A DNA stretch of 64,000 nt from Eledone cirrhosa (lineage: Eukaryota). Made by a program: the position numbers and the translations under genes. The notes below the pieces were generated by a model, which worked only from the letters and a program-made list of their open reading frames with translations, was not told the origin of the DNA and did not search any database. This document shows, one piece after another, positions 4,500-62,725 of the stretch (position 1 is the first letter of the stretch; each line of letters opens with the position of its first letter). Location of the stretch: NCBI GenBank assembly GCA_964016885.1, contig OZ024740.1, positions 286,812,001 to 286,876,000 on the forward strand, written 5' to 3'.

Positions 4500-7400
4500 A
4501 GAGAGGGCTCTCTCTAGTACTGGTGGCACGAATAAAAGCACCCAGTCCATGCTGTAAGTGGTGTTAGGAAGGGCATCGAACCAGTATATATACTATTGCC
4601 AAAAACTATGAGCACAACAAATAAGAATTGCAACAATTGCGTCAACAGCAATAACACTAACCACGTTAGGGCTGCGTATGGTAATGGGGTGGCTGGTGCA
4701 GCCATAGGCGAGAACCCCCCGGCCGTCAAGAAATCGCACAACAACAAGAACTGCGTAAACAGCAATAACACTAACCATGTTAGGGTTGGCACGGTAGTGG
4801 GGTGGCTGGTGAGGCCATGTGCGAGAACCCCCCTGACCGTCATTAAGCAATCGCACTACAGGAAAAGGAACAAGAATATGAAGACGTCGCATCTCAGAGT
4901 TGCAGCACTTAATGTTGGCACTCTAACAGGTAGATCTGGAGAGATAGCGGAGATGCTGGAGAGAAGGCATGTGGATGTGTGCTGCGTGCAAGAGGTGGGA
5001 TGGAGAGGTGCCTCTGCGAGACTAATCGCAGGCAAACATCTTAGTGATAAGCTTTTCTGGGTGGGTATTGATGATGGGTTAGGGGGAGTAGGCATTTTCC
5101 TGGCTGAGAGATGGATCGATAAGACAATAGAGGTAGTTCAAGTTAGTAATAGAATGATTAAGCTTAGATTAGTTGTAGGCAAGAGACTACTGACAATCAT
5201 ATCTGCCTATGCTCCCCAGGCAGGCCTAGGTAAAGAAGAGAAAGACTGCTTTTATGAGCAACTTATACAAATAGCTGCAATGACAGAGGACGGAGACATC
5301 GTTATGCTAGCAGGGGACTTCAATGGTCATGTTGGACAGCTCCAGGGTGGTTACACTGGGGTACATGGTGGGCACGGTTATGGATCAAGAAATGAAGGAG
5401 TGAGACTTCTTGAATTTTGTGATGCAAGTGCACTAACCATTTGCAACACTAACTTCTAGAAACCTGCCAACCACCTAATAACCTACAAATCAGGCGAGCA
5501 CATAAGCCAGATTGACTTCTTGCCAGTTAGGCAGCGGGACAGGCAAATGGTGTCAAATACCAAGGCATACCCCGGGGAAGAATGTATCCCACAGCATAGG
5601 TTAGTCGTTAGTGATATCTCAGTAAGCAAGAGACGGAATGAGACATACAGGAAGGTGTGGAGAAGAAAGGTCTGGAAACTAAAAGACCTTTTACTAAAAT
5701 ACAAATTTAGGAAAGCCCTACAAGATGTGAATGACGAAAAAGAAGACGATTTAAAGTTGTATGACATAGATGATAACTGGAATTTCTTACGTGACAACTT
5801 ACTGCAGGCTACTGAAGAAACTTGTGACTGGAGCAGAGCTCCAACCAGGCAGAGAGTGACTTGGTGGTGGAACAGCATGGTAGATAAGGCCATTAGAGAC
5901 AAAAGACTAGCATAGAAGGCTTGGAAAAATGGTGAGAGTAGAGAAGGATATACAGCCGCTAAGAGAAGCTAGATGTCAGGTGTACTTAGCACGCAGGGAG
6001 GCTGAGAGTAGGAGATTTGCCAATGTTCTGCGATGGAAAGATCAGAGACGTGTAGTGTGCCACATTGCAGTGTGTCAGTGCAAATCAGGATGTTGTTGGA
6101 GATAAGTGTGTCCGGAATGATGCCGGTGTACTTAGTGTCACGAATGATCAAAAAAGGGAGGCCTGGAAATGTCATTATGAGAGACTGATGAATGGGACAG
6201 AGAAATTACCCTCAGTAGATCCGACAGAGGGGCCAGCTATTGAGATTGACGAATATAGGGTCCAAGAGGCGATTAAGGAAATGAAAAATGGTAAGGCCGC
6301 TGGACCGTCGGGGATAGTTGCTGAGATGCTGAAGGCATCGTGGGATGTAGGCACTAAACTGGTTGCATGCATCATCAATCAAGCTATATATGGCGATGTC
6401 ATACCCAAAGACTGGTGTAGCAGTATTCGCATAAGTTGCTACAAAGGTAAAGGGGATGCTCTGGAGAGGAATTATAGGGGCATAATACTGATGGATCAGG
6501 TTATGAAAGTGGCAGAAAGGATATTAATGCAACTAATTAGAGAAAGGGTCAAACTAGATGAGATGCAGTTTGGTTTTGTGCCTGGGAAAAGTACAACAGA
6601 TGCCCTCTTCTTAGTGAGACAATTACAAGAGAGGTTCTTAGAGAAGAATAAGCCACTATACTTAGCTTTTGTTGACCTAGAGAAGGCCTTTGATAGGGTA
6701 CCCCAATCTGTCATCTGGTGGTCCCTAAGGAAACTAGGTGTTGAGGAATGGCTTGTGAGGACAGTGCAAGCTTTGTACAAAGGTGATGTCACTAAAGTGA
6801 GGGTAGGAATGGAGTTTAGTGAGGAATTCCAGATACAAGTAGGAGTTCTGTCCTCCGCCCGTTCGTGTTCATTATAGTCCTCCAAGCCGTAACAGAGGAG
6901 TTTAAGACTGGCTGTCCATGTGAACTTCTCTATGCTGACGATCTGGTTCTTATAGCAGAATCAGTAGAGGAGCTAGAGAATAAATTCTAGCTATGGAAAC
7001 AGCAATTGGAATCAAGAAGACTGAGAGTGAACCTAGCTAAGACAAAAGTATTGCTGAGTAGAAAAGAGGACAAAACTCTGATTCTGTCAGGGAAATGGCC
7101 ATGTTCGATATGCAGAAAAGGAACTGGCATAAATTCTATAAAATGTACACAATGCAGATGTTGGGTGCACAAGAGATGTAGTGGGATAGCTGGCAAACTA
7201 ACAGGTAGGGAGAAATACGTATGCAGTAGATGTACAGGGAAATTTGACAGTAGAAGTCGCATTGTTAGACACATTTTTCAAATGCAGGTGGGTGCTATAG
7301 GAGTGGTTGATAGCTTCCGGTACCTAGGAGATCAGATTAGCATGGGAGGGGGATGTTCCGAGGCCATAGTATCTAGAATAAGGACGGGTTGGAAGAAGTT

Positions 7401-7843
7401 TAGGGAGCTGCTTCCTCTGCTGATGAAGAAGGGATTCTCCCTGCATACGAAAAGTCGGTTATATGATGGTAGTGAGACATGAGCAGCAACTGCAGAGGAT
7501 ATGCGACGGCTGGAGAGAAATGAGGCAAGCGTGTTCCATTGGATGTGTAATGTCAATGTGCGTGAACAACTGAGCATGGATGTGTTGAGAGGGATAGATT
7601 GTAGTGTGCGGGAGAGGAGACTGCGATGGTATGAACATGTGATGCGCATGGAGGATGACTGATGGGTGAAGAAGTGTGGAGGAAGACCACAAAAAACATG
7701 GGCGGAGGTGGTGAGAACAGACCTCAGATCGCTGAAGCTCACGGTGATGACGACGAAGGACCATGATAAGTGGAGAGATGCTGTGCTGAATAGAATCCAT
7801 CCCACCCTTGCAAGCAGGGAAAAGCGAACGTAAAATGATGATT
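4500..7843 (+). mobile_element. Near-full-length but disrupted RTE-clade LINE (AP endonuclease + RT + PHD-type finger)
   Basis: APE motifs 'LNVGTL','CVQE','AYAPQ','GDFNGHVG'; RT motifs 'QFGFVPGKST','FVDLEKAFD', YADD at 6931-6942; C4HC3 finger; (ATG)n tail; several stops and frameshifts; 5' boundary approximate. Confidence 0.93.
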
Positions 7844-22308: not shown

Positions 22309-22458
22309 GAATTAACTCATGGACTTGATCTGAAAACTTGTTCCTGGAAATTTGTTGGTTCCCTTGAACCTCCTCGGGTAGTTCATGTTCGTGTGACTGA
22401 AATGTTAAGTAAAGAAAACCTTTATGCACAGATGACAGTTCGCTTACACACACAACAG
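22309..22458 (+). CDS. MRPL45: MRPL45 coding exon (Tim44-like domain)
   Basis: ctcAG|..|GTcagt; ELTHGLDLKTCSWKFVGSLEPPRVVHVRVTEMLSKENLYAQMTVRLHTQQ. Confidence 0.95.
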
Positions 22459-22790: not shown

Positions 22791-22867
22791 TAACGTCAAT
22801 GATAATGCACCAGCATGTTCGCTGGTGCACGTAATAGAGTCATATATATATAATATATAATGTGGGT

Positions 22868-22910
<43 letters not shown>

Positions 22911-23067
22911 TTCGTTTAACGTCCATCTTCCACGCTAGCATGGGTTAGACGGATAATAAATATTACCCAATTAGAAGTATGAAAATAGCTCAATGTAAAA
23001 TATCAAGTATATTACAGAGCCAAAATACAATATAAATGACAATCAAAGATTATTTAAAACATTTAAT

Positions 23068-23114
23068 CACTTACAATCGTTTCATCCTAGCACAAGGCCG
23101 GGATCATCAGAGTA
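23068..23114 (-). ncRNA. Minimal type I hammerhead ribozyme motif (core intact)
   Basis: TACT-CTGATGA-TCCcGGC cttgt GCTaGGA-t-GAAAC gatt GTA-AGTG: both core boxes, stem II, short stem III, GUA cleavage triplet and stem I are present; one extra U precedes GAAA. Confidence 0.65.
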
Positions 23115-23440
23115 GATAATAAAAATCAAACACAAATATAATATCAGAACTTTGTCACAAGAACATTTGGAGAATACATAATATGGGAGGCTAGATAAGG
23201 ATAAGTATCAACATTTATATAAGATATAAGATAACAGAGTTGGAAGAGGCATAAGGAGAATAGGAGCAGATAAAAAAAGCATTAAAAATAAATAAAAAAC
23301 ATGCTGTTACAGAAATTGTAAAATATGCTGCTACAGAAAGGTTAAGTAGCAGCATTTATATGTTCCTCTTCTTATGCCTCTTCCGCCTCTGTTATTGTGT
23401 CAAAATTCTGATATTATATTTGTGTTTGACCTTTATTATC

Positions 23441-23487
23441 TACTCCGATGATTCCGGCCTTGTGCTAGGATGAAACGATTGTAAGTG
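23441..23487 (+). ncRNA. Second copy of the hammerhead motif (U4C core variant)
   Basis: TACT-CCGATGA-TTCCGGCCTTGTGCTAGGAT-GAAACGATTGTA-AGTG. Confidence 0.55.
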
Positions 23488-24100
23488 ATTAAATGTTTGA
23501 TGGTCATTTATATTTTATATTGTGTATATATATAAACACATACACACATAATCTACTGATATAATAGCCAATGTGTATTTGTCCATCACACGCATTAGAT
23601 GACTGAAGAAGGAAGGGGCGATGACAAACTACAGAAAGCAGCGACTAACATTGGCTGTTATAATTATGTGAGAGTTTGTGTGTATATTTGTCTTTGTATA
23701 AATTATATTTAAATATAATATTTGTGTGAGTGTATGTCTGTTAGTGTGTGTTTATTTAGAAAGGTACATACACAACAGAATTACAAACACATACACATCT
23801 ACACATACATATATATAAACAGACACACTTAGAAAGAAATAATTATTACATACATACATATCTATGTGGTGACTGAGGAAGGAGGAGAGTGAGAAACTAT
23901 AGAAGTCCAGTGTTCAAAGATTTGTCACACTTGTGTATGTATATGTGTAGCGAATTGACTACACACATTGTTTATATTACTTGAGTGAGTGAGCACAAAG
24001 GAACCAACCAAAAACCCAACAAACAGCACTCATTTATCTCTTTTTTATATTATGTATAGATATAACAATTAGCTGTTATACAGTATATATGATATATGTA

Positions 24101-24432: not shown

Positions 24433-24440
24433 AATATATA

Positions 24441-25987
<1,547 letters not shown>

Positions 25988-26670
25988 TATATATATATAT
26001 ATATACATATATCATCATCATCTCAAAATTAATGATATTGCTCAAGAAAAATCTCATCAGGCTTTGTGATTACAGTTTTTACAATCATTTGAGACAATTG
26101 TAAATTTCCAACCGTGATATCCTAGATCTTAATACTGTAGTTACTGGGAAAATATGAGAGACTCATATTTTCTGTTATTGATAAATTGCCAGCTTCATGT
26201 AAAGCTATAGGCCCTTACTAGTAAACCTGTGGCATTAATAATGATGGCAATATCATTGATTGTATTTAATTTTGGAGTCCAGGATTGGTATGCCATATAT
26301 ATAAGGATTAGCAGAAATATGAACAATCAAGCAAACTGGGAAATTTGTGTTTTGATAAATTGATAGTTTGCATAAGAGAAACCTTATAATTTTAGTTAAT
26401 TACTGACATATGGAAGTGATTAAAGATAAGAATGATATTTCTAGGATATGGTTACATAAATGTTTGACATATGTACAAATGACATGCAGGATTAAATATA
26501 TGAGTAACATTGGAGAAATAACAATTCATAGAAAAAAATGTAGGATTAAAACCCAGGACCTTGAGATTGGAAAGTGAAAGTCTTTTTAATGACTGAGATA
26601 GGAAATGCCTTGGGTATGTTTGAGTGTGTAAATTCTAAAAGGTTACACCCACATGTATATATATAATAGA

Positions 26671-26800: not shown

Positions 26801-28233
26801 AATAGATTTCTTCATTGTACTGTGTCATATTATTTCTATTTGTCTTTTGCATACATAATATACACACACACACACAATTCAAGGATAGGAAATTGTCTAG
26901 ACAAAGGTATCCACATATGCATGTTTGTACAATTATATAGGCACAATGACATAAGAAGATCAGAGTAAAGTTGTTAGAAAATCGATTCTTACCTTCCATA
27001 TACATATATATATTCATAGATGCATTGCCAAAGAAAAATCAGCTAGCAAGTCAGAGTACTTACATAGATGGTAAAATTCCGATTATTTCCAAATCAGATA
27101 GCAAGTAAAAAGAACTTACTTAAATATGGTAAAATTCCAAAATTTCAATATTTCTATACAGCTGTTTCATGAGTGCAAGAGAAATTTTAAATAGAATGCA
27201 CCAAGTTAAATAGTGTGTGTTTTTATTTTGGGAAAATCATTTTGCCAATAAAAACACATGCTTTATTTGGCTTTAACTTCAGCTTTATTATTATTAGTTA
27301 TTAGTTATTTCATTATTCGTCCTTCTCTGTTCCTCCTCTTTTTTCTGGTCTTACTTTGTTTACTCAAACAAGATAGAATAAACAAAATAAGACCAGAAAG
27401 AAGAGGCACAGAGAAGAACAAATAGTCATTGAGGAGGTCACAAAACATGCAGTAATGTGATTGGCATGAGTAAGGGCATCCAGCTATAGAAAAAGAAGCT
27501 AAAATCATATTGTATGAACAAAACATAATCACCCAATCTGTCTGGCTTCGTAACGACCCCTCTAACCTATACAAGCACAGAAAATAGACATTAAACAGTG
27601 ATGATATTATATCAAATTTTACAATTAAGCCCTTGAAAGCAGAAAATGTGCAACATGAGATGATATTGCAGCTAATGAGATTTTAATTCTGAAACGTTGC
27701 TGATTTCAAATTGTAATTACCATGTATATTCAAATGAATATACATAGCCTTGCTGTTGTTATTAATATTTAATATTCAATTTGCATTGCTATAATCTTCT
27801 ATAAAAAAAACTGTTTTCTGCATCAGGTAAGCTACTTAAGGGCATCCAGCTGTAAAAATACAGTTCCGTTTCAGTAAGGTACAGCATGGCCAACTGACCA
27901 AACTTGTCTCATAACATAGACGACCCATCTAACCCATGCAAGCATGGAAAAAATATATGTTAAATGATGATATTATATATATATATACACACACACACGC
28001 GTGCGCACACACACATACGCACGCACACACACACACGAAAGACAACCTCTCAGTGCTGGTGCCACTATGAAATGCACTTGGTAGAATGTGGAACCATATG
28101 TAAACAAGATGCGAGCCCCATCCTGTCTGGGAGGTCAGTAGCCCTATTTCAATATAGACTCGGTCTGTGATGACCCATCTAACCCTTGTCAGCTAGGAAA
28201 GTGGACATTAAATGATGATACATATATATATAT

Positions 28234-29905
28234 GTAAAAGGTAAACAGAAATAACAACACAATCGGTACAGTATATGAAAGGAATATATTAGTTTAACGC
28301 TTGAAATAGCAGGAAAAGGGTCTTAACATTTAGGACGGGCAGGGTGGAATGAAAAAAATGCTTTTTGAGAAAAATAACAAGTCCATTCATGTTGTCATCT
28401 CTTGGAAAACTTGGTGCTGGCATTTCGTGTATGATATACTTTTTTAGAAAAGTGAATGATGGAGCGCGTCTACCTGAAATGGAAAATAAAACATTTTGTA
28501 TATAGAGATATACATGTGCGTGTGTGTATTATTGTACGTCCATATGAAGCTAAGAGGATATGTATGTGTATAAGTAAAAGATGTGTGTGCTTGTAAGTAT
28601 GAAGCTGTGAGCAAAAGTATGTTAATATAAGGGAGTATGTATGTGTGTATACAGAGCTGTGAAAGGAAAAGTAGAGGTGTGTGTGCGTATTTAGTTGGTC
28701 TGTATCAGCTATAAGAGTATGTTTCTGACCATAAGAGAGCCATAGGAATCTAGGGTGAATGTACAAGCACGTGTGTGATAACGAACGTATATGTGTAATA
28801 TTAAAGAAATTGGGGAGGGGAGTTGAGTCCATGAGGGAAACAGGACCCAAGGCGGAAAATCAGATTCTCTTCAGTCCTGGTACGCAAGGCCTGTGATCCA
28901 TGATGTAAAAAGACACCAAGGACTGAGACATGTAGGGAAGAGTGACCTGGGGAACGGAAATGATGGGCAACAGTAGTATCCATACCGAGTTGTATATCTC
29001 TCAAATGTTCAGCAAAACAATCCACCCAACAGCGTCCCATTTGTCTGATGTATAAGGAGCCGCAAAGGAAAATCCGGAGGGCATAGACAAGATGGGTGGA
29101 GGTACAGGTGAAGGAGTTGTGGATACGGAATGAACCATTGATGCCTGTGAGAGTGGTGAGGTTGGAAATGAAAGGACAGGTGTTACAGCAGGGACAAGAA
29201 CAAGGATGAGAGCTGGGTGGAGTCATGGGAGAGGACAAGAAGAAACTGCATACCAGGAGGTCATGGAGATTACGGGCGCACTTAAATGCAGTGGTAGGTG
29301 GGTTAGGAAAAAATTGAGAAGTGACGGAGTCAGAAAAGGAGCTGTGGAAGGAATAGAATATGTCGTCGGAGAGGTAGGGTGATGGGGTGGTAGGAGAGAG
29401 TGAAAGGAAGGCGGGTGTTGGGAGGACACTTGTCAAAGTAGCTTGGATCAGCGTGGGGGAAATCCATGCTGGATGAAGCAAGAGGCCATGTGAAGGGAAT
29501 GGGTTTCAAAATGGTTGTCCTGGCTACAGAGGAATTGGGAGTAGGGTATGGAGAGTTTAGTGTGGATTGGATAGGAGGAGGTGAAGTTGAAGTAAGAGTG
29601 GTTTTATAGAAGATGGAAGTAGAGAGGGTGTGGTGAGTGTGATCAATAGAGAGAGAGATATCAAGAATTGGAGACAGGTGGTGAAGGTGAGAACGAGATG
29701 AAAAGATTGAATAAAAGAGAAAGCAGTCAAACTGTTCACGTGATAGAGAGGTGGCGCCGATACAGTCGTCAATATAACAACCGTATAGCTCAGGAGTAGG
29801 TCCAGTGTACTGGGAGAAGATCTAAGCTTCAACATAGCCAACAAACAAGTTGGCATAGTTCAGACCCATTCTAGTTCCAATCGCTACCCCAGAGACCTGC
29901 TTGTT
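28234..29905 (-). mobile_element. 5'-truncated Penelope-like retroelement (Neptune-type): RT, Cys linker, GIY-YIG endonuclease
   Basis: 'QVSGVAIGTRMGLNYANLFVGYVE','YIDD','CSCPCCNTC','LVYALR..CGSLYI..MGR..F.EH','VAHHF','LIFRLGSCFPHGLN'. Confidence 0.9.
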
Positions 29906-33880: not shown

Positions 33881-34162
33881 TGTCTTGCAATTTATGATCG
33901 GTTTGGTCGTTTAATGTATGGTGATGAAAACCTTGTAAAAGACGTCTTGGAATATGTTGTGTTTGAAAATCATATATCAAATATATATGGTCAATGGAGA
34001 ATTCATGGAAAGATAATTCCAGAATGGATGCCGTCTAGAGACCCTATTATTCAAACATATCAGTTGCCTAAATTTGAACCTATTGAAGAGGAGATAGAAG
34101 AAAATAAACAGGATGACAAAGAAAATACAAAAGAAAATCAGGAACAGTATGCAACTGCCTAA
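33881..34162 (+). CDS. MRPL45: MRPL45 terminal coding exon
   Basis: Strong acceptor tttttcAG; [49 protein letters not shown]..stop. Confidence 0.97.
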
Positions 34163-36748: not shown

Positions 36749-37200
36749 CTAGCAGCTAGATTTAAAGTTATGGAAAGAGTGTCGGTGGTAGTGTTGGCAG
36801 ATGGAAAAAATTTCTGATTTTCTATTTAAGAGGTCTAGTTTAGAATAGATTATAATGCGGGTCTCTAGAAGACAGAGGTTACATAATTTATTAGGTGGTT
36901 TATACGATGCGGCCCTATCTATTACTTCCCATTGAAGTGTATATGGTCTATTCCTAGTTTTCAGAGAGTATATGTAGTTAGATAAAGAAGTGGAGTTGGC
37001 TAGATTGCGATTTTTGAAAGTGTGGAGATGTGAGTTATATCTCGTCTTGAAGTTGTTTGTGTTGACTGTGCATGAGTAAATGATGTCTTTGATTAAGCAA
37101 TTTTTATCTAAGGGACAAGTTCTATTTGTTTTACAGTTACAGTTATTCTGGTTGTTTGCTTGCCAGTTACTATGTTGTGTAGATGCCTGGTTGATTATTG
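36749..37200 (-). mobile_element. Penelope-like element C-terminal endonuclease (Hydra-clade-like), 5'-truncated
   Basis: CxCx5Cx5C ([15 protein letters not shown]), 'IIYSCTV','FKTRYNSH','LQWEVI','CNLCLLE','LLNRKSE..CQH'; YIG half of the motif missing; abuts a (TA)n tract. Confidence 0.8.
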
Positions 37201-37206
37201 TGTAAT

Positions 37207-37212
37207 TTATAT

Positions 37213-37274
<62 letters not shown>

Positions 37275-37329
37275 GTATGTATATATATATGTATGTATGT
37301 ATATATATATATATATGTATGTATGTATG

Positions 37330-37360
<31 letters not shown>

Positions 37361-37381
37361 ATATATATATATGTATGTATG

Positions 37382-37440
<59 letters not shown>

Positions 37441-37667
37441 ATATAAATATATATATATGTATGTATGTATATATAAATATATATATATGTATGTATGTAT
37501 ATATAAATATATATATATGTATGTATGTATATATAAATATATATATATGTATGTATGTATATATAAATATATATATATGTATGTATGTATATATAAATAT
37601 ATATATATGTATGTATGTATATATAAATATATATATATGTATGTATGTATATATAAATATATATATA

Positions 37668-37698
<31 letters not shown>

Positions 37699-37718
37699 GT
37701 ATGTATATATATATATAT
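37207..37718. repeat. Compound (TA)n/(TATG)n microsatellite with a 30-bp higher-order unit
   Basis: atataaatatatatatatgtatgtatgtat x7 exact at 37441-37650. Confidence 0.95.
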
Positions 37719-37789
37719 AAAAGTGGTTACACAACGTTAGTTCACCTTACCGAGAACAATTGTTTCACACATACACACACATATATATT

Positions 37790-56790: not shown

Positions 56791-57618
56791 GCTGGGGCTG
56801 TTGTGGGGTGGCCAGGGCTTGGGTGCCATTTGCTCATAATAGTGGGAGAGACAGAGGCAGTGACAATGGGAGTTTGGTTCCATTGTGTTCGGACCTGGTG
56901 TATATGTATATATTTATTTACCACACCACATTTTATTCATGTGCATGGATGTACAATATTAATTAATCACCAAGGTTACATGACAATACAAAAATGTAAT
57001 GGAATTTTAACGTCCAAACAAACTGGGTCTTCAAACACTAAAGACCTGATGTGTTTATCAATAAAGAAATATATGTCTCATCAATGCTTAAAGACCAAGA
57101 TTTGAGTAAACTGATAGTTGCTCAGAACTTGTGTTAAAGTTCTTAATGTGGCAAAGGAGAACATGTGATTTAAATTAATAGTTAGAGCACTGGGTAAAGG
57201 TATGTAGTCTAGTGGTTATGTTGTTGGTCTCAGGATTATATGGCTATTGGGTCGATTCCTGGACCGTGTGGCATGTTGAGTTCCTGAGCAAGTTGCTTTT
57301 GTTCATGTTGCTTTTTATGACAGGACTTGGGTACCTAACATTAAAACACATGAGAAACCTCTTATAAGATGCAATGTTGTAGGAGGTTAGTTAAACCTAC
57401 ATGGGTGTGAAATGTCTATTTTTCTTTTCCAGAGCATTAGGCTTAATTTCTGAAAAGATTCCTATCTATCATAACTACATTGCTTGAAACTGTTATTCTA
57501 AGAAAACTACTTTCTGTCTGAAGTTTTCAAACCTGGTGGAAAGAGACAAGTTAATATTTGTATTGTAGTGACAAACATAAACATTGTAATAATAATAATA
57601 ATTAATTATTATTTTCAG

Positions 57619-57822
57619 GTAACTTTTACAAAGCGTAAATTTGGACTTATGAAAAAGGCTTATGAACTCTCTGTGCTGTGTGACTGTGAAATTGCACTGA
57701 TAATCTTCACAAGTGGAAACAAATTGTACCAGTATGCTAGCTCCGATATGGACAAAGTACTGCTGAAGTATACTGAGTACAATGACACAGTAGTCAGCCA
57801 AACTAACAGAGACATTGTAGAG
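57619..57822 (+). CDS. MEF2: MEF2 coding exon (MADS + MEF2 domain)
   Basis: [68 protein letters not shown]; 204-nt exon with AG/GT boundaries. Confidence 0.98.
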
Positions 57823-59895
57823 GTAATATTTAATTTTTTTATCTCCCAGCTTCCAAATCAGATTTAACTATAGTTATTGTTTATGCTGGTGAGATGGCAC
57901 CCATTATCCCTCAAATCTTGCCAAAATCAACTTTGCTTTTCATTCTTCTAGGGTCAATAAAATAAAGTACCAGTCTAAAATAAAGTACCAATTGATGGAA
58001 TTGTTAAAGAATGAGATAGGATGCTTTGTGGCATCTACCCCTGCTATGTGCATTCTGAGTTCAAATCCCACCTCTTTCTGGCAGGAGCTGCAACCAGCAG
58101 ATAGTATTAGCAATAGAAAAACCAATAGAAACAATATTTACAATATTTCCTTCGTCTGGTCTAATAATTGGCTCTTTTCTTTTCCTGTTTTTATTGCACA
58201 GTGGCTAGAGTTTGCAATGTTTAATGTTTCTTGCCATTAAGAGAAATATATTGTCTAAGGATGTCTACAAAAGATTGGAAGGATATTAGTATGATTCTAA
58301 GAAAATACCATTCAAAACTGAGGGAGTGTTATGAAATTGTTATGAATTTGACATCAAATGTCATAAAACAGAAGTTTCAGAATATTTATTGATTTCCTAT
58401 CTGTTATGTCACTATTTTTGGCTTGTCTTATTAACCATTTCATTAACATATTTCTAATGAAAAACTATTTGAATTAATTTATGAGGAATTTTATTAAAAT
58501 CAATAATTATTTCATTATTAAGATGGTATTTGTAACCTAACAAAAAGGTTTAAATTATGTTGGAAGGTTATAATTTAAATGGGAACCCTTTAAAATGCAC
58601 TGTTGTGTTTTATAGAACCAAAGGCATGTTTAGGGCAGGTTGTTATCAAAAAGGTTAAATAATACTGCTACTAGTATCTAGTGTCTATCTCTTCTATAGT
58701 ATCCCATGTTAAGATTTATGTGCAACACTACTAATTGATGAAATATTTCTCAATTGTATAATACTTAGCACATTAGAAACTATGAAACTATGTGAAATTA
58801 TTAACTCATTTCTGGAGCTAAAGTGTGAACAAAGGATTTCCAGAAGATAGTAGTTCCAAGAACAAATTATTTAATGTGAAATTTTAAGTGTGAGATATGG
58901 GCAGGATGATGGTGAGGAATTGGTTGAAATAGTTGGGTTGCATAAATGTATATAATATGCTAGTTCAAAGGAGTAGGAAACATTGTAGTAACAGTAAAAG
59001 AGACAGAAGAAGAGCACGATGACTTAGTGTGCTAGTGTTTCTGGTATTTTAATGAGTGAAATTTTGTCAGTCTCGTGTATGGTCAAGTTTTGGTTGTAGT
59101 GTGGAAGGCATGTGTCTGCTGATCTGTTCAATATATGTGAGCATAGGTTACTATTTCAAAATTTTTATTTGTTTTTAGATAATTAAATAAAAATGATAAA
59201 CTATTATAATATTTGATGAGTTGCATAACATTATATTGAGGAGCACCATTAAAGATTTCATGTTGTTTGTATAGTACAATCAAACAGGTAGTCCATCTTT
59301 TTATACCATACAAACAGGAAGAGTTGAGCTCATTATTGCAACCAGGTTAATTCTAACACTTAGTGTAGCAGATTTTACTTGCTGCTTAAGGAGACTGGGG
59401 TGTTCATTATTTTATTGACAATCAACTTGATTGCCTGTAGCAGTCAGTTATATAAATTTAATGTAATAGATATTTTCAATCTATGTTGGATTTAAATAAT
59501 CATTGAACTATTATCAGAGTGGCTATTGTGATGGGTTTATGCATCACATAACAGTCCCTTATCAAATATTATTATTATGCTGGTTTTCTAAACGTTTTTA
59601 TGTTCTTTTAGATTCAAATGCCTATATTTGAATGGATAAAACATAAAATTAGTTAGTATCTTCACCTATTTGAGAGTTCTTATATTGTACTGTACTATAA
59701 TGATGCTGGTTGAGGTTGTGGTGGCAGCTATTTCATACATCATTCATACATAAAAGACGAAATTGTAAAAAGGAGTGTGGTAAAAACAAGAATGGGTGAA
59801 AGACATTACATAATAGATGTAAAAACAAGTTTAAAAATTGATAGATTCAACATACAAATAATTATAATAATAATAATTTTATTACTCCATTTTAG

Positions 59896-60675: not shown

Positions 60676-61078
60676 GTAAAAATGATAATTTTTTACTTTT
60701 TATAAAAAAAAATTTTTTGTAATATTTTTAATATGATTCAGTGAAAATAGAGATAAATTTGTTTTCATTTAATGATTTTGTGTGATAAACTTTTCTACTG
60801 GTTCAATCCAAACTTGAAGCTATAGATCACAGGGATTTATTTGGAATATTCTTTGATCTCTAATTTTTAAAGTATTTTTTGTGTTTATTTGAAGCTGAAA
60901 TAAACAAAATTATTGCATATAAATGTATAAATTTTCTAATTCATGTTTGCATTGAAAAACCTGTAAAAGTATTTATGTATTATATGGATTAACTAATTGT
61001 TAAATGAAATCTTTTATGATGTATCTTTAACTGAAATGGATTATTTTCTCATTTGTAATACCTATTTCTATTTTAAAG

Positions 61079-61344
61079 TATCGCTCTATTCAGGTTCAAA
61101 AAGTGGTGGAGATTCATCCAGTTCTCCAGTTACTGCCACTCGTTCTCTACAGATACCATCCCAAGCCACAGAAGACAGCAATTCTCCTGGAGCGCAATCT
61201 TCACCTGGTCCGTCTTTAGTTAATACATTGGTTAACAATAAAGATGTCACTGACTTAAGTACTACTAGTGCAGGACACTTACTACAAACTAAATCAAGAC
61301 CAGATTTAAGAATACTCATACCACCAAAGATGACCAATGATAAT
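61079..61344 (+). CDS. MEF2: MEF2 coding exon with MAPK docking motif (alternative acceptor at 61094)
   Basis: ..SPGAQSSPGP..KSRPDLRILIPPKMTNDN|GTGAGT; 'RPDLRILIP' matches the MEF2 D-domain. Confidence 0.85.
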
Positions 61345-62725
61345 GTGAGTATTTGAATTTTTGTATTGCTTTTTTGTTAATCATCATCATTATGTTTTAC
61401 CATGGATTGGGCTTTAAAAATCTTTACTTCCTCTGAATTCTTAAAAAAAATTTTTTTTATTGAATGTAATTCTATTTAACTTAAATGTTGTTTGAAAGAA
61501 GAAAAATGTCCTTGCTATTGCAGTCTTAATACTGAGTATGTTACAATATCTGTAATAGTTAAACTAGTATTTACAATTAATAGGTATCTTGGTGGAAACC
61601 TACTAGTTAAATTCATGTCTTGTACTCCTGTCTGAAAGTCCATAAGCTCAAAGCCAATCCCTTACAATTATATTTTAACTTTGCCTGTCTTAGTTCACCT
61701 AGATGCAAATAGGTGACGGTGGATTGGCAGTATCGGTAGAGGGTCGGACGCCATGCTTTCCAGCATAGTTGTCTCTTTACGATCTGAGTTCAAATCCCGA
61801 CGAGGTTGACTTTGCCTTTCATCCTTACGGGGTCGATAAAATAAAGTACCAGTAATGTACTGGGTAATTGCTGGCCTTGTGCCAAAAGTAGAAACAATTA
61901 TTGTTTCCTAGAATCAATAGAGCATCTGATAGAATGTTTTACTGTATTTGTTTCAATACTGTGCACTCTGAGTTCAGATCTTGCCAAGATCAACTTTGCC
62001 TTTCATCCAGTGTTGATAAAATACATTACTGGTCAAGTATTGGGGTCAATATAATCGATTTTCTTCTTTCTTCAAAATTGCTGGCTTTGTGCCTAAATTA
62101 GAAGCTATTATTTCTTCCTAGTTGAAGTATTAGCATTGAGAATGATATCAACTATAACTATACATTCATAGAGAAATATAATATTAGAGAAAAAATTAAT
62201 TGTTGTAAGCAAAGATATTATTTATGAAAATGTTAATAAATTTGACAATTAATGCTCAGAAGATGTTATAGCTGGATGGACTCAGAGGTATATGAAATAG
62301 AAAGACCCATAAATCTGCTAGTTGTAGGTTCACAGAGATATTTGATAATGTGCATGCTAAAGACGAGACAGATACCTATAACTTACAGAACAAGTCTCTG
62401 CAAGGTAACTTGCTGCAAGCCAAAGACAATAAGTATGACTGGAGTAAGGTACCAATGAGACATGGTGGTGTAGTGGTACAGTAGATAAAGCCATAAAAGC
62501 TAAGTGACATGTCTGAGAAGATTGCAAAAGATGAGAGAATAGGAAATCTGCTAACTTAATATTTATAAAATAAAATTGCTATAACTAATGATTATAGTGG
62601 AGAGAAAAAAAAGTTTCCATCTACTGACTTTGAGTGTGTAGGTGTTTTTATATTTCATACATTTATTGGTGGTTAATTATTGCTTATTTTATTTAGTCTA
62701 ATATTTTTGTAATGTTTATTTGCAG

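What the first reader, a model, noticed from the sequence alone, without database searches (positions are those of the whole stretch)
23028..23515. Intronic ~490-bp foldback carrying two oppositely oriented hammerhead ribozyme motifs
Seen: the segment folds back around ~23340. Each arm has a minimal hammerhead (CTGATGA/CCGATGA..GAAAC-gatt-GTA) pointing outward, the unit has no ORF, and it sits between microsatellites. Established: Penelope-like elements carry minimal hammerheads in terminal repeats, which can be inverted, and such minimal motifs are thought to work as dimers. Inference: a non-coding ribozyme-bearing foldback unit in which a transcript of either strand contains one ribozyme plus its own antisense. 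Cleavage would then compete with long-dsRNA formation (ADAR/Dicer substrate) inside MRPL45 pre-mRNA. If the unit recurs, it would be a small ambisense retrozyme-like mobile element.
Basis: partly seen in the sequence, partly recalled or inferred. Interest (0 to 1): 0.75.

Follow-up and report, generated by a model that had tools for sequence, protein, structure and literature searches.

The report
Decayed two-armed Penelope retrotransposon stump
This hairpin in an intron of the MRPL45 gene is two cut-short ends of a Penelope-type jumping gene joined back to back at a junction found nowhere else in the genome; the layout is already described, and its ribozyme motifs are predicted to be blocked by the hairpin itself.

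Summary
The foldback and both outward-facing minimal hammerheads are real and lie in an MRPL45 intron. It is not a recurring unit: the junction occurs once in 3 Gb. Each arm is the 5'-truncated 3' end of an old, abundant repeat whose longer copies carry reverse transcriptase and GIY-YIG endonuclease remnants with Hydra-clade Penelope motifs. Head-to-head pairs are routine: 11 of 28 pattern-picked loci of this family, and 26 of 66 insertions of a young sister family, all with different spacings. One arm ends short and the other carries a tail in 22 of 22 and 20 of 20 pairs, as here. The same layout, with hammerheads on both strands, is published (Penelope-13_HM, PMC8557442 supplement). The arms are 4-5% decayed; the core is predicted more than 99% paired in either strand's transcript, and the two motifs cannot dimerise in cis. 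No cleavage or RNA data. This scan noted similar foldbacks before on other DNA. Side results: a CCGA (U4C) core in 1,912 identical young copies, and an excess of near-equal truncation points (p about 0.0005).

The parts
22309..22458 (+). MRPL45 exon upstream of the host intron
   Evidence: phmmer to mL45 residues 172-220, E 2e-10 to 3e-11
22842..22859 (.). TA-rich run, left flank of the insertion (inferred target)
   Evidence: sequence; family tails end in TA runs
22860..22869 (-). last 10 nt of the element's tail, displaced by the SINE-like piece
   Evidence: matches the family tail end
22870..22952 (-). 83-nt 3' piece of a very abundant SINE-like repeat with (ATC)14 tail, inserted later into the tail
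   Evidence: TRF; 3 other copies in the window; summed depth above 300,000 and over 1,500 loose read ends at 22952; the label SINE is recalled
22953..23021 (-). tail of the long-ended arm (element positions about +51 to +118 from the cleavage site)
   Evidence: aligns with tails of family copies
22953..23348 (-). left arm: 5'-truncated 3' end of the Penelope-like element, from position -306 to the tail
   Evidence: 18 of 375 positions (4.8%) differ from the family majority
23068..23114 (-). minimal type I hammerhead motif, CTGATGA core; predicted cut after 23072
23325..23355 (.). head-to-head junction (3-nt overlap at 23346-23348) forming a small local hairpin; unique in the genome
   Evidence: 117-nt contig across it with 0 mismatches at single-copy depth in runs X1, X2
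23346..23514 (+). right arm: shorter inverted 3' end of the same element, tailless, with three internal deletions
   Evidence: 6 of 161 positions (3.7%) differ from the family majority
23441..23487 (+). minimal type I hammerhead motif, CCGATGA (U4C) core; predicted cut after 23483; sense to MRPL45
23525..23534 (.). TA run, right flank of the insertion
   Evidence: sequence
33884..34159 (+). MRPL45 exon downstream of the host intron
   Evidence: phmmer to mL45 residues 222-296, E 1e-25

Best explanation
The foldback is two 5'-truncated 3' ends of an old Penelope-like retrotransposon (likely Hydra clade) joined head to head at a unique junction, likely made in one insertion event and now decaying neutrally, with ribozyme motifs predicted to be inert. 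Inferred mechanism: the GIY-YIG endonuclease cut both strands of a (TA)n target; each 3' end primed reverse transcription at one of two fixed internal start sites of the element RNA (here about +50 and +137 past the hammerhead cut site), on RNA that was not cut at that site; both cDNAs stopped early and were joined through microhomology. The hammerhead is doubled only because it lies within about 140 nt of the element's 3' end. Later a SINE-like piece landed in the tail and microhomology-bounded deletions shortened the arms. In MRPL45 pre-mRNA the unit would form a long dsRNA hairpin that buries the sense hammerhead.
For: Shown: most top hits cover only query 3-328, the left arm plus centre. 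Longer copies continue upstream into GIY-YIG endonuclease and RT remnants (L031, L032, L073, L075), 55% identical over 154 aa to the intact 832-aa ORF of a young sister family. Junction unique. Six head-to-head pairs among the first 100 of 120 exact 22-mer matches, spacings 60-579 nt, all different. Inverted partner in 11 of 28 pattern-picked loci including the window, often too short to hold the hammerhead. Tail on exactly one arm in 22 of 22 two-armed old-family loci and +47/+208 ends in 20 of 20 young pairs. Young family: 26 head-to-head joints in 66 clusters, 0 tail-to-tail; junctions show 1-9 nt overlaps or short locally templated inserts. Arm-arm difference 13 of 169 equals about the sum of each arm's decay. 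Literature: inverted 5'-truncated copy, one-sided tail and (TA)n targets (PMC8557442, PMC3846280); both strands cut and extended, two RT start sites define the tail, uncleaved RNA is the template (PMC11167929); paired min-HHRs 100-700 bp apart on opposite strands (PMC4209133).
Against: No pre-insertion allele or target-site duplication could be read (TA runs). The integration steps are inferred from insertion anatomy and from another clade's in vitro data. Clade assignment rests on motifs, not a tree; the element is 4.2 kb against the under 3 kb typical of Hydra. Both arms share the minority GATT loop (24 of 100 listed matches), which could mean a subfamily template, parallel CpG decay or arm-to-arm conversion. 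6 of 20 young single-hammerhead loci showed no partner arm and 3 mapped poorly. Inertness is a folding prediction only.
Confidence: 0.92

Rival explanations
1. A small ambisense, retrozyme-like mobile unit that transposes as a fixed foldback.
For: Two motifs on opposite strands and many similar two-armed loci in the genome.
Against: Junction unique at up to 3 mismatches; every pair has a different junction and spacing; retrozymes are direct tandem repeats of hammerhead-bounded monomers (bioRxiv 2026.07.22.740005, part 1), not found here; arms extend past the cut sites to the element's own ends, so the unit is not bounded by cleavage.
Confidence: 0.02
2. A single copy inserted and the second arm arose later by local inverted duplication or fold-back repair, unrelated to integration.
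For: Small hairpin and microhomologies at the junction; both arms share the GATT loop and T after the core.
Against: The right arm keeps family bases that the left arm has lost or changed (23124, 23125, 23109), ends at the family's fixed short end rather than at a random place, and the short/long rule holds in 22 of 22 and 20 of 20 pairs.
Confidence: 0.04
3. The insertion has been co-opted as a regulatory switch in MRPL45 pre-mRNA (editing or splicing state releases the hammerhead to cut the intron).
For: The sense hammerhead keeps all core positions of its family; the hairpin would be a long dsRNA with an A-C mismatch at 23109/23446 (ADAR preference for A-C mismatches is recalled).
Against: Even alone, the motif's hammerhead fold is 6.2 kcal/mol above its best fold; minimal hammerheads need a same-strand partner (PMC4209133) and none is present in the window; decay looks neutral and shows 0 A>G among 24 substitutions.
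Confidence: 0.02

Closest known systems
Hydra-clade Penelope-like elements, especially Penelope-13_HM and Hydra-1_Obim (Craig et al. 2021, PMC8557442; passages, section 11 and supplement part 2 read)
   Same: C-terminal GIY-YIG EN with CxCX5C linker, no CCHH, CxxC and CxH motifs; DKT and RW(K/R) in the sister ORF; (TA)n targets; 3' type I hammerhead, many with T opposite T at the base of stem II; Penelope-13_HM is listed with a 5'-truncated inverted copy and a hammerhead on each strand.
   Different: Unit 4.2 kb with a 1.4-kb 3' non-coding part (Hydra generally under 3 kb); tails of about 87 and 161 nt against 30-40 nt; CCGA core where all 26 listed Hydra rows have CTGA (their descriptor favours CTGA); the Hydra-1_Obim hammerhead as listed is a different sequence, so this is another family.
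Inverted-pLTR insertions of Penelope/Poseidon elements (Adineta vaga, PMC3846280, passages; Anolis PAc, PMC11167929, parts 1-2 of 4)
   Same: Head-to-head inverted 3' ends, palindrome or microhomology at the junction, tail on one arm, two RT start sites.
   Different: Different PLE clade; here the copy is truncated so far that only 3' ends remain.
Minimal hammerheads of metazoan PLEs (Cervera and de la Pena 2014, PMC4209133, parts 1-2 of 4)
   Same: Short stems I and III, palindromic loop 3, extra nucleotide at the base of stem II, mostly solitary copies, some pairs 100-700 bp apart on opposite strands.
   Different: U4C core is the family's majority state; the window's loop has decayed from GATC to GATT.
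Metazoan non-LTR retrozymes (bioRxiv 2026.07.22.740005, part 1 of 5)
   Same: Non-coding, type I hammerhead, PLE-related.
   Different: No direct tandem monomers; arms are stumps of a coding element; junction unique.

Membership tests
EN+ Penelope-like element | RT plus C-terminal GIY-YIG endonuclease linked to the repeat | tested here: met
   EN remnants 1 kb upstream of the hammerhead in L031, L032, L033, L073; RT remnants in L073, L075. Pfam gave no RT or GIY-YIG hit for the 832-aa ORF; Atlas neighbours at 0.96-0.98 carry HTH_animal, GIY-YIG, RVT_1.
EN+ Penelope-like element | partial tandems forming pLTRs with hammerheads | tested here: met
   Sister family: 8 same-strand neighbours 4172-4201 nt apart; hammerheads either side of the ORF in L063. 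Not seen for the old family itself.
EN+ Penelope-like element | inverted 5'-truncated copy with a tail at one end | tested here: met
Hydra clade | CxCX5C linker, no CCHH, CxxC and CxH flanking E and N | tested here: met
   Read by eye in translations of the old family and the young ORF
Hydra clade | RWK and DKT motifs, GxKF/Y not conserved | tested here: inconclusive
   RWR, DKT and GFKT in the sister ORF; this region was not recovered for the old family
Hydra clade | (TA)n insertion preference | tested here: met
   ends run into TA repeats
Hydra clade | length under 3 kb | tested here: not met
   sister family period 4185 nt; the paper says 'generally'
Hydra clade | phylogenetic placement of the RT | not tested
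   no named reference proteins in hand; the 120 listed homologues carry no informative names
Minimal type I hammerhead | core nucleotides and three stems | tested here: met
   core present (U4C on the right arm); 95.6% of 45 cells paired over 5 sequences, 1 compensatory pair, not beyond shuffles (189 of 500)
Minimal type I hammerhead | palindromic loop 3 allowing a double hammerhead | tested here: inconclusive
   GATC in 76 of 100 family matches; window GATT pairs only through G-U wobbles (-5.8 vs -11.1 kcal/mol for the young family); the double hammerhead is the best dimer fold for the young family but not for either window arm
Minimal type I hammerhead | self-cleavage | not testable with these tools
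   needs an assay
Non-LTR retrozyme | direct tandem hammerhead-bounded monomers | tested here: not met
   no tandem array at the locus; no same-strand pair within 2 kb among the first 100 exact matches
Non-LTR retrozyme | recurrence as a fixed unit | tested here: not met
Non-LTR retrozyme | abundant circular RNA | not testable with these tools
   no RNA run listed

The most novel reading that the evidence does not exclude
These foldbacks record the default integration chemistry of Hydra-clade Penelope elements: one enzyme complex primes both strands of the target break on a single RNA, one strand always at the short start site and the other always at the tail start site, so both cDNAs often stop at the same RNA break. 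The strict short/long pairing (20 of 20, 22 of 22) and the excess of near-equal 5' ends (5 of 20 within 15 nt, 0.9 expected) would be its genomic footprint, and a young family with intact ORFs and 1,912 identical U4C hammerheads would make it testable in vitro, including whether the palindromic stem III serves to pair RNAs rather than to cut.
Probability: 0.35. Interest if true: 0.45.

Novelty: new member of a known kind. Interest (0 to 1): 0.15.

Why it matters
As a locus it matters little: one of hundreds of decayed stumps. It explains a recurring first-stage signal (twin outward hammerhead foldbacks) as a by-product of Penelope integration. The useful by-products are a young family with many intact 832-aa ORFs, a strict one-short/one-tailed rule and coupled truncation points that bear on the open question of how Penelope elements make inverted insertions, and a natural U4C hammerhead core kept in a recently active element.

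Tried and rejected
Rfam scan: no hammerhead family at E <= 1, only chance miRNA hits. Pfam does not recognise the EN remnants or the 832-aa ORF. Run search: no RNA holder listed, so expression, editing, small RNAs and cleavage ends were not examined. Reads and contigs laid are dominated by other family copies; they support the junction's existence at single-copy depth, but X1-X3 are one sample and may be the source of the assembly. Editing fixed in DNA: 0 A>G and 3 T>C among 24 substitutions, rejected. Covariation test on 5 sequences was not significant. Assembly artefact rejected (arms differ at 13 of 169 positions; junction contig). The paper of Lunse et al. on dimeric cleavage is not held; only its title and a review's passages were seen (PMC6765202). 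Lookup of earlier notes by sequence gave one unrelated hit. No tree was built. In one search, copies not spanning the core were dropped (57 kept); two of 57 loci (L102, L103) gave no probe hit and count as unpaired.

Full report
Observation. The inverted repeat is real: a 109-nt core at 94% complementarity plus two smaller paired blocks, folding at z = -26.5. A motif scan of both window strands found the two hammerhead shapes at 23110 (minus) and 23445 (plus), plus two loose matches elsewhere that I did not pursue. No ORF of 100 aa overlaps the unit. The flanking plus-strand exons match consecutive parts of mL45. The genome has 3.0 Gb; that it is an octopus-type genome is my inference and that of earlier notes, not a tested fact.

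What the arms are. A DNA search of the own genome gave 881 candidates, 40 scored; most top hits cover only the left arm and centre. Read on the minus strand this is the 3' end of a repeat. Longer copies run about 1 kb further upstream into an endonuclease-like frame with CxCX5C, CxxC and CxH motifs and no CCHH, and two loci also hold RT remnants. Searching with that frame found a young sister family with many 832-aa open frames, which carries RWR, DKT, a YRDD RT motif and the same EN, 55% identical over 154 aa. These are the published marks of the Hydra clade (PMC8557442, section 11). Pfam did not recognise the ORF; the Atlas placed it among RT/GIY-YIG clusters. The clade call rests on motifs, not a tree, and the 4.2-kb length exceeds the usual.

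Does the foldback recur as a unit? No. The junction 27-mer has one match at up to three mismatches, the window itself. An exact 22-mer from the hammerhead has 120 matches; among the 100 listed there are 6 head-to-head pairs with spacings 60, 145, 327, 398 (the window), 434 and 579 nt. Of 28 distinct pattern-picked loci, 11 including the window have an inverted partner, often only a piece of tail. The young family has 1,912 identical hammerheads; the first 100 form 66 clusters with 26 head-to-head joints spaced 135-6,247 nt, 8 tandem neighbours about 4.2 kb apart and no tail-to-tail joint. Twin outward hammerheads are therefore a routine product of this element type. The literature says so too: an inverted 5'-truncated copy and a one-sided tail are typical (PMC8557442; PMC3846280), paired minimal hammerheads 100-700 bp apart on opposite strands were reported in Schistosoma (PMC4209133), and Penelope-13_HM is listed with an inverted copy and a hammerhead on each strand (supplement).

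Anatomy of this insertion. The left arm runs from element position -306 to the tail; the tail is split by an 83-nt SINE-like piece at 22870-22952, and its last 10 nt lie at 22860-22869 next to a TA run. The right arm starts about 15 nt nearer the 3' end, overlaps the left arm by 3 nt at the junction, lacks 87, 71 and 12 nt at places bounded by short repeats, and stops at the family's short end before a TA run. The arms differ from the family majority by 4.8% and 3.7% and from each other at 13 of 169 positions, with C>T and G>A commonest and no A>G, as expected from independent neutral decay. A 117-nt contig spans the junction without mismatch at the depth of the single-copy exon in two runs of one sample, which may be the assembly's own source.

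Mechanism (inferred). In 20 of 20 young two-hammerhead pairs fetched (20 of the 26), one arm ends at +47 and the other at +208; of 20 single-hammerhead loci 9 had a short main arm with a tailed partner, 2 had irregular partners, 6 had none detected and 3 mapped poorly. In the old family the tail is on exactly one arm in 22 of 22 two-armed loci among 57 examined. Junctions show short overlaps or locally templated inserts. In vitro, an Anolis Penelope protein cuts and extends both strands and starts at two internal sites that define the tail, using uncleaved RNA (PMC11167929). Together these support double priming from the two ends of one break and a microhomology join. The two 5' ends lie within 15 nt in 5 of 20 pairs against 0.9 by shuffling (p = 0.0005; within 35 nt, 7 against 1.7, p = 0.00008), which suggests both cDNAs often stop at one break in one RNA; self-priming at the junction, proposed in PMC3846280, is an alternative. 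In five searches and the passages read I saw the one-sided tail described but no count of a strict short/long rule; earlier notes of this scan mention two fixed outer ends.

The ribozyme. The fourth core position is C in 36 of 55 family copies and T in 17, and the other CpG decay product (CCAATGA) occurs in 8 of 57; the young family has CCGAAGA in all 1,912 exact copies. So CCGA is likely ancestral and the 'canonical' left core is likely a deamination. U4C lowers activity in vitro yet supports a viroid in vivo (PMC3088659 passage). For the young motif the double hammerhead is the best predicted dimer; for the window arms the hammerhead fold is 6.2 and 7.6 kcal/mol above the best fold and the dimer does not form it. 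In the foldback the antisense arm is made first on either strand and the core is paired with probability above 0.99 except at one mismatch. The two motifs lie on opposite strands, so one transcript cannot supply the dimer. Minimal PLE hammerheads are inactive as monomers and weak as dimers (PMC4209133). Cleavage of MRPL45 pre-mRNA is therefore unlikely; editing of the hairpin is plausible and untested.

Verdict. Observation confirmed; interpretation partly supported; an ordinary decayed insertion of a known kind. bioRxiv supplements were closed and the PDF figures of PMC8557442 were not seen; they may hold further Hydra junction detail.

Noticed in passing
G000, e.g. L063:2616-7047: Young Hydra-type Penelope family, period about 4.19 kb, intact 832-aa ORF in many copies, 1,912 identical CCGAAGA-core hammerheads; a good substrate for biochemistry.
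   Followed up: partly
L130-L149: Excess of near-equal 5' truncation points in the two arms (5 of 20 within 15 nt) and locally templated junction inserts (L118, L140).
   Followed up: partly
window 36761-37114, minus: Another Hydra-type endonuclease remnant, 64% identical to the young ORF, next to a long TA-rich array (37208-37719).
   Followed up: partly
window 28801-29505, minus: Remnant that looks by eye like a GIY-YIG Penelope of another clade; no Pfam hit.
   Followed up: no
window 24434-25994: Tc1/mariner copy with long terminal inverted repeats and a broken transposase in the same intron.
   Followed up: no
window 27314-27424: 110-nt purine/pyrimidine hairpin with chance miRNA-model hits, no other analysis.
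   Followed up: no
window 57502-57864 and 60997-61356: Exons of a MEF2-like SRF-type transcription factor (Pfam SRF-TF); the MEF2 label is recalled.
   Followed up: no
window 4536-7482: Broken LINE (AP endonuclease and RT frames by eye, RTE-like; label recalled).
   Followed up: no
L074:9229 minus; L068:571; L064:7063; L074:8942 minus: Further hammerhead families near these loci, one with the CCGAAGA core and a third palindromic loop (AATT).
   Followed up: partly
family tail, window 22953-22972 with 22860-22869: The old family's tail ends in a short stem-loop, as the Anolis RT start region does.
   Followed up: no
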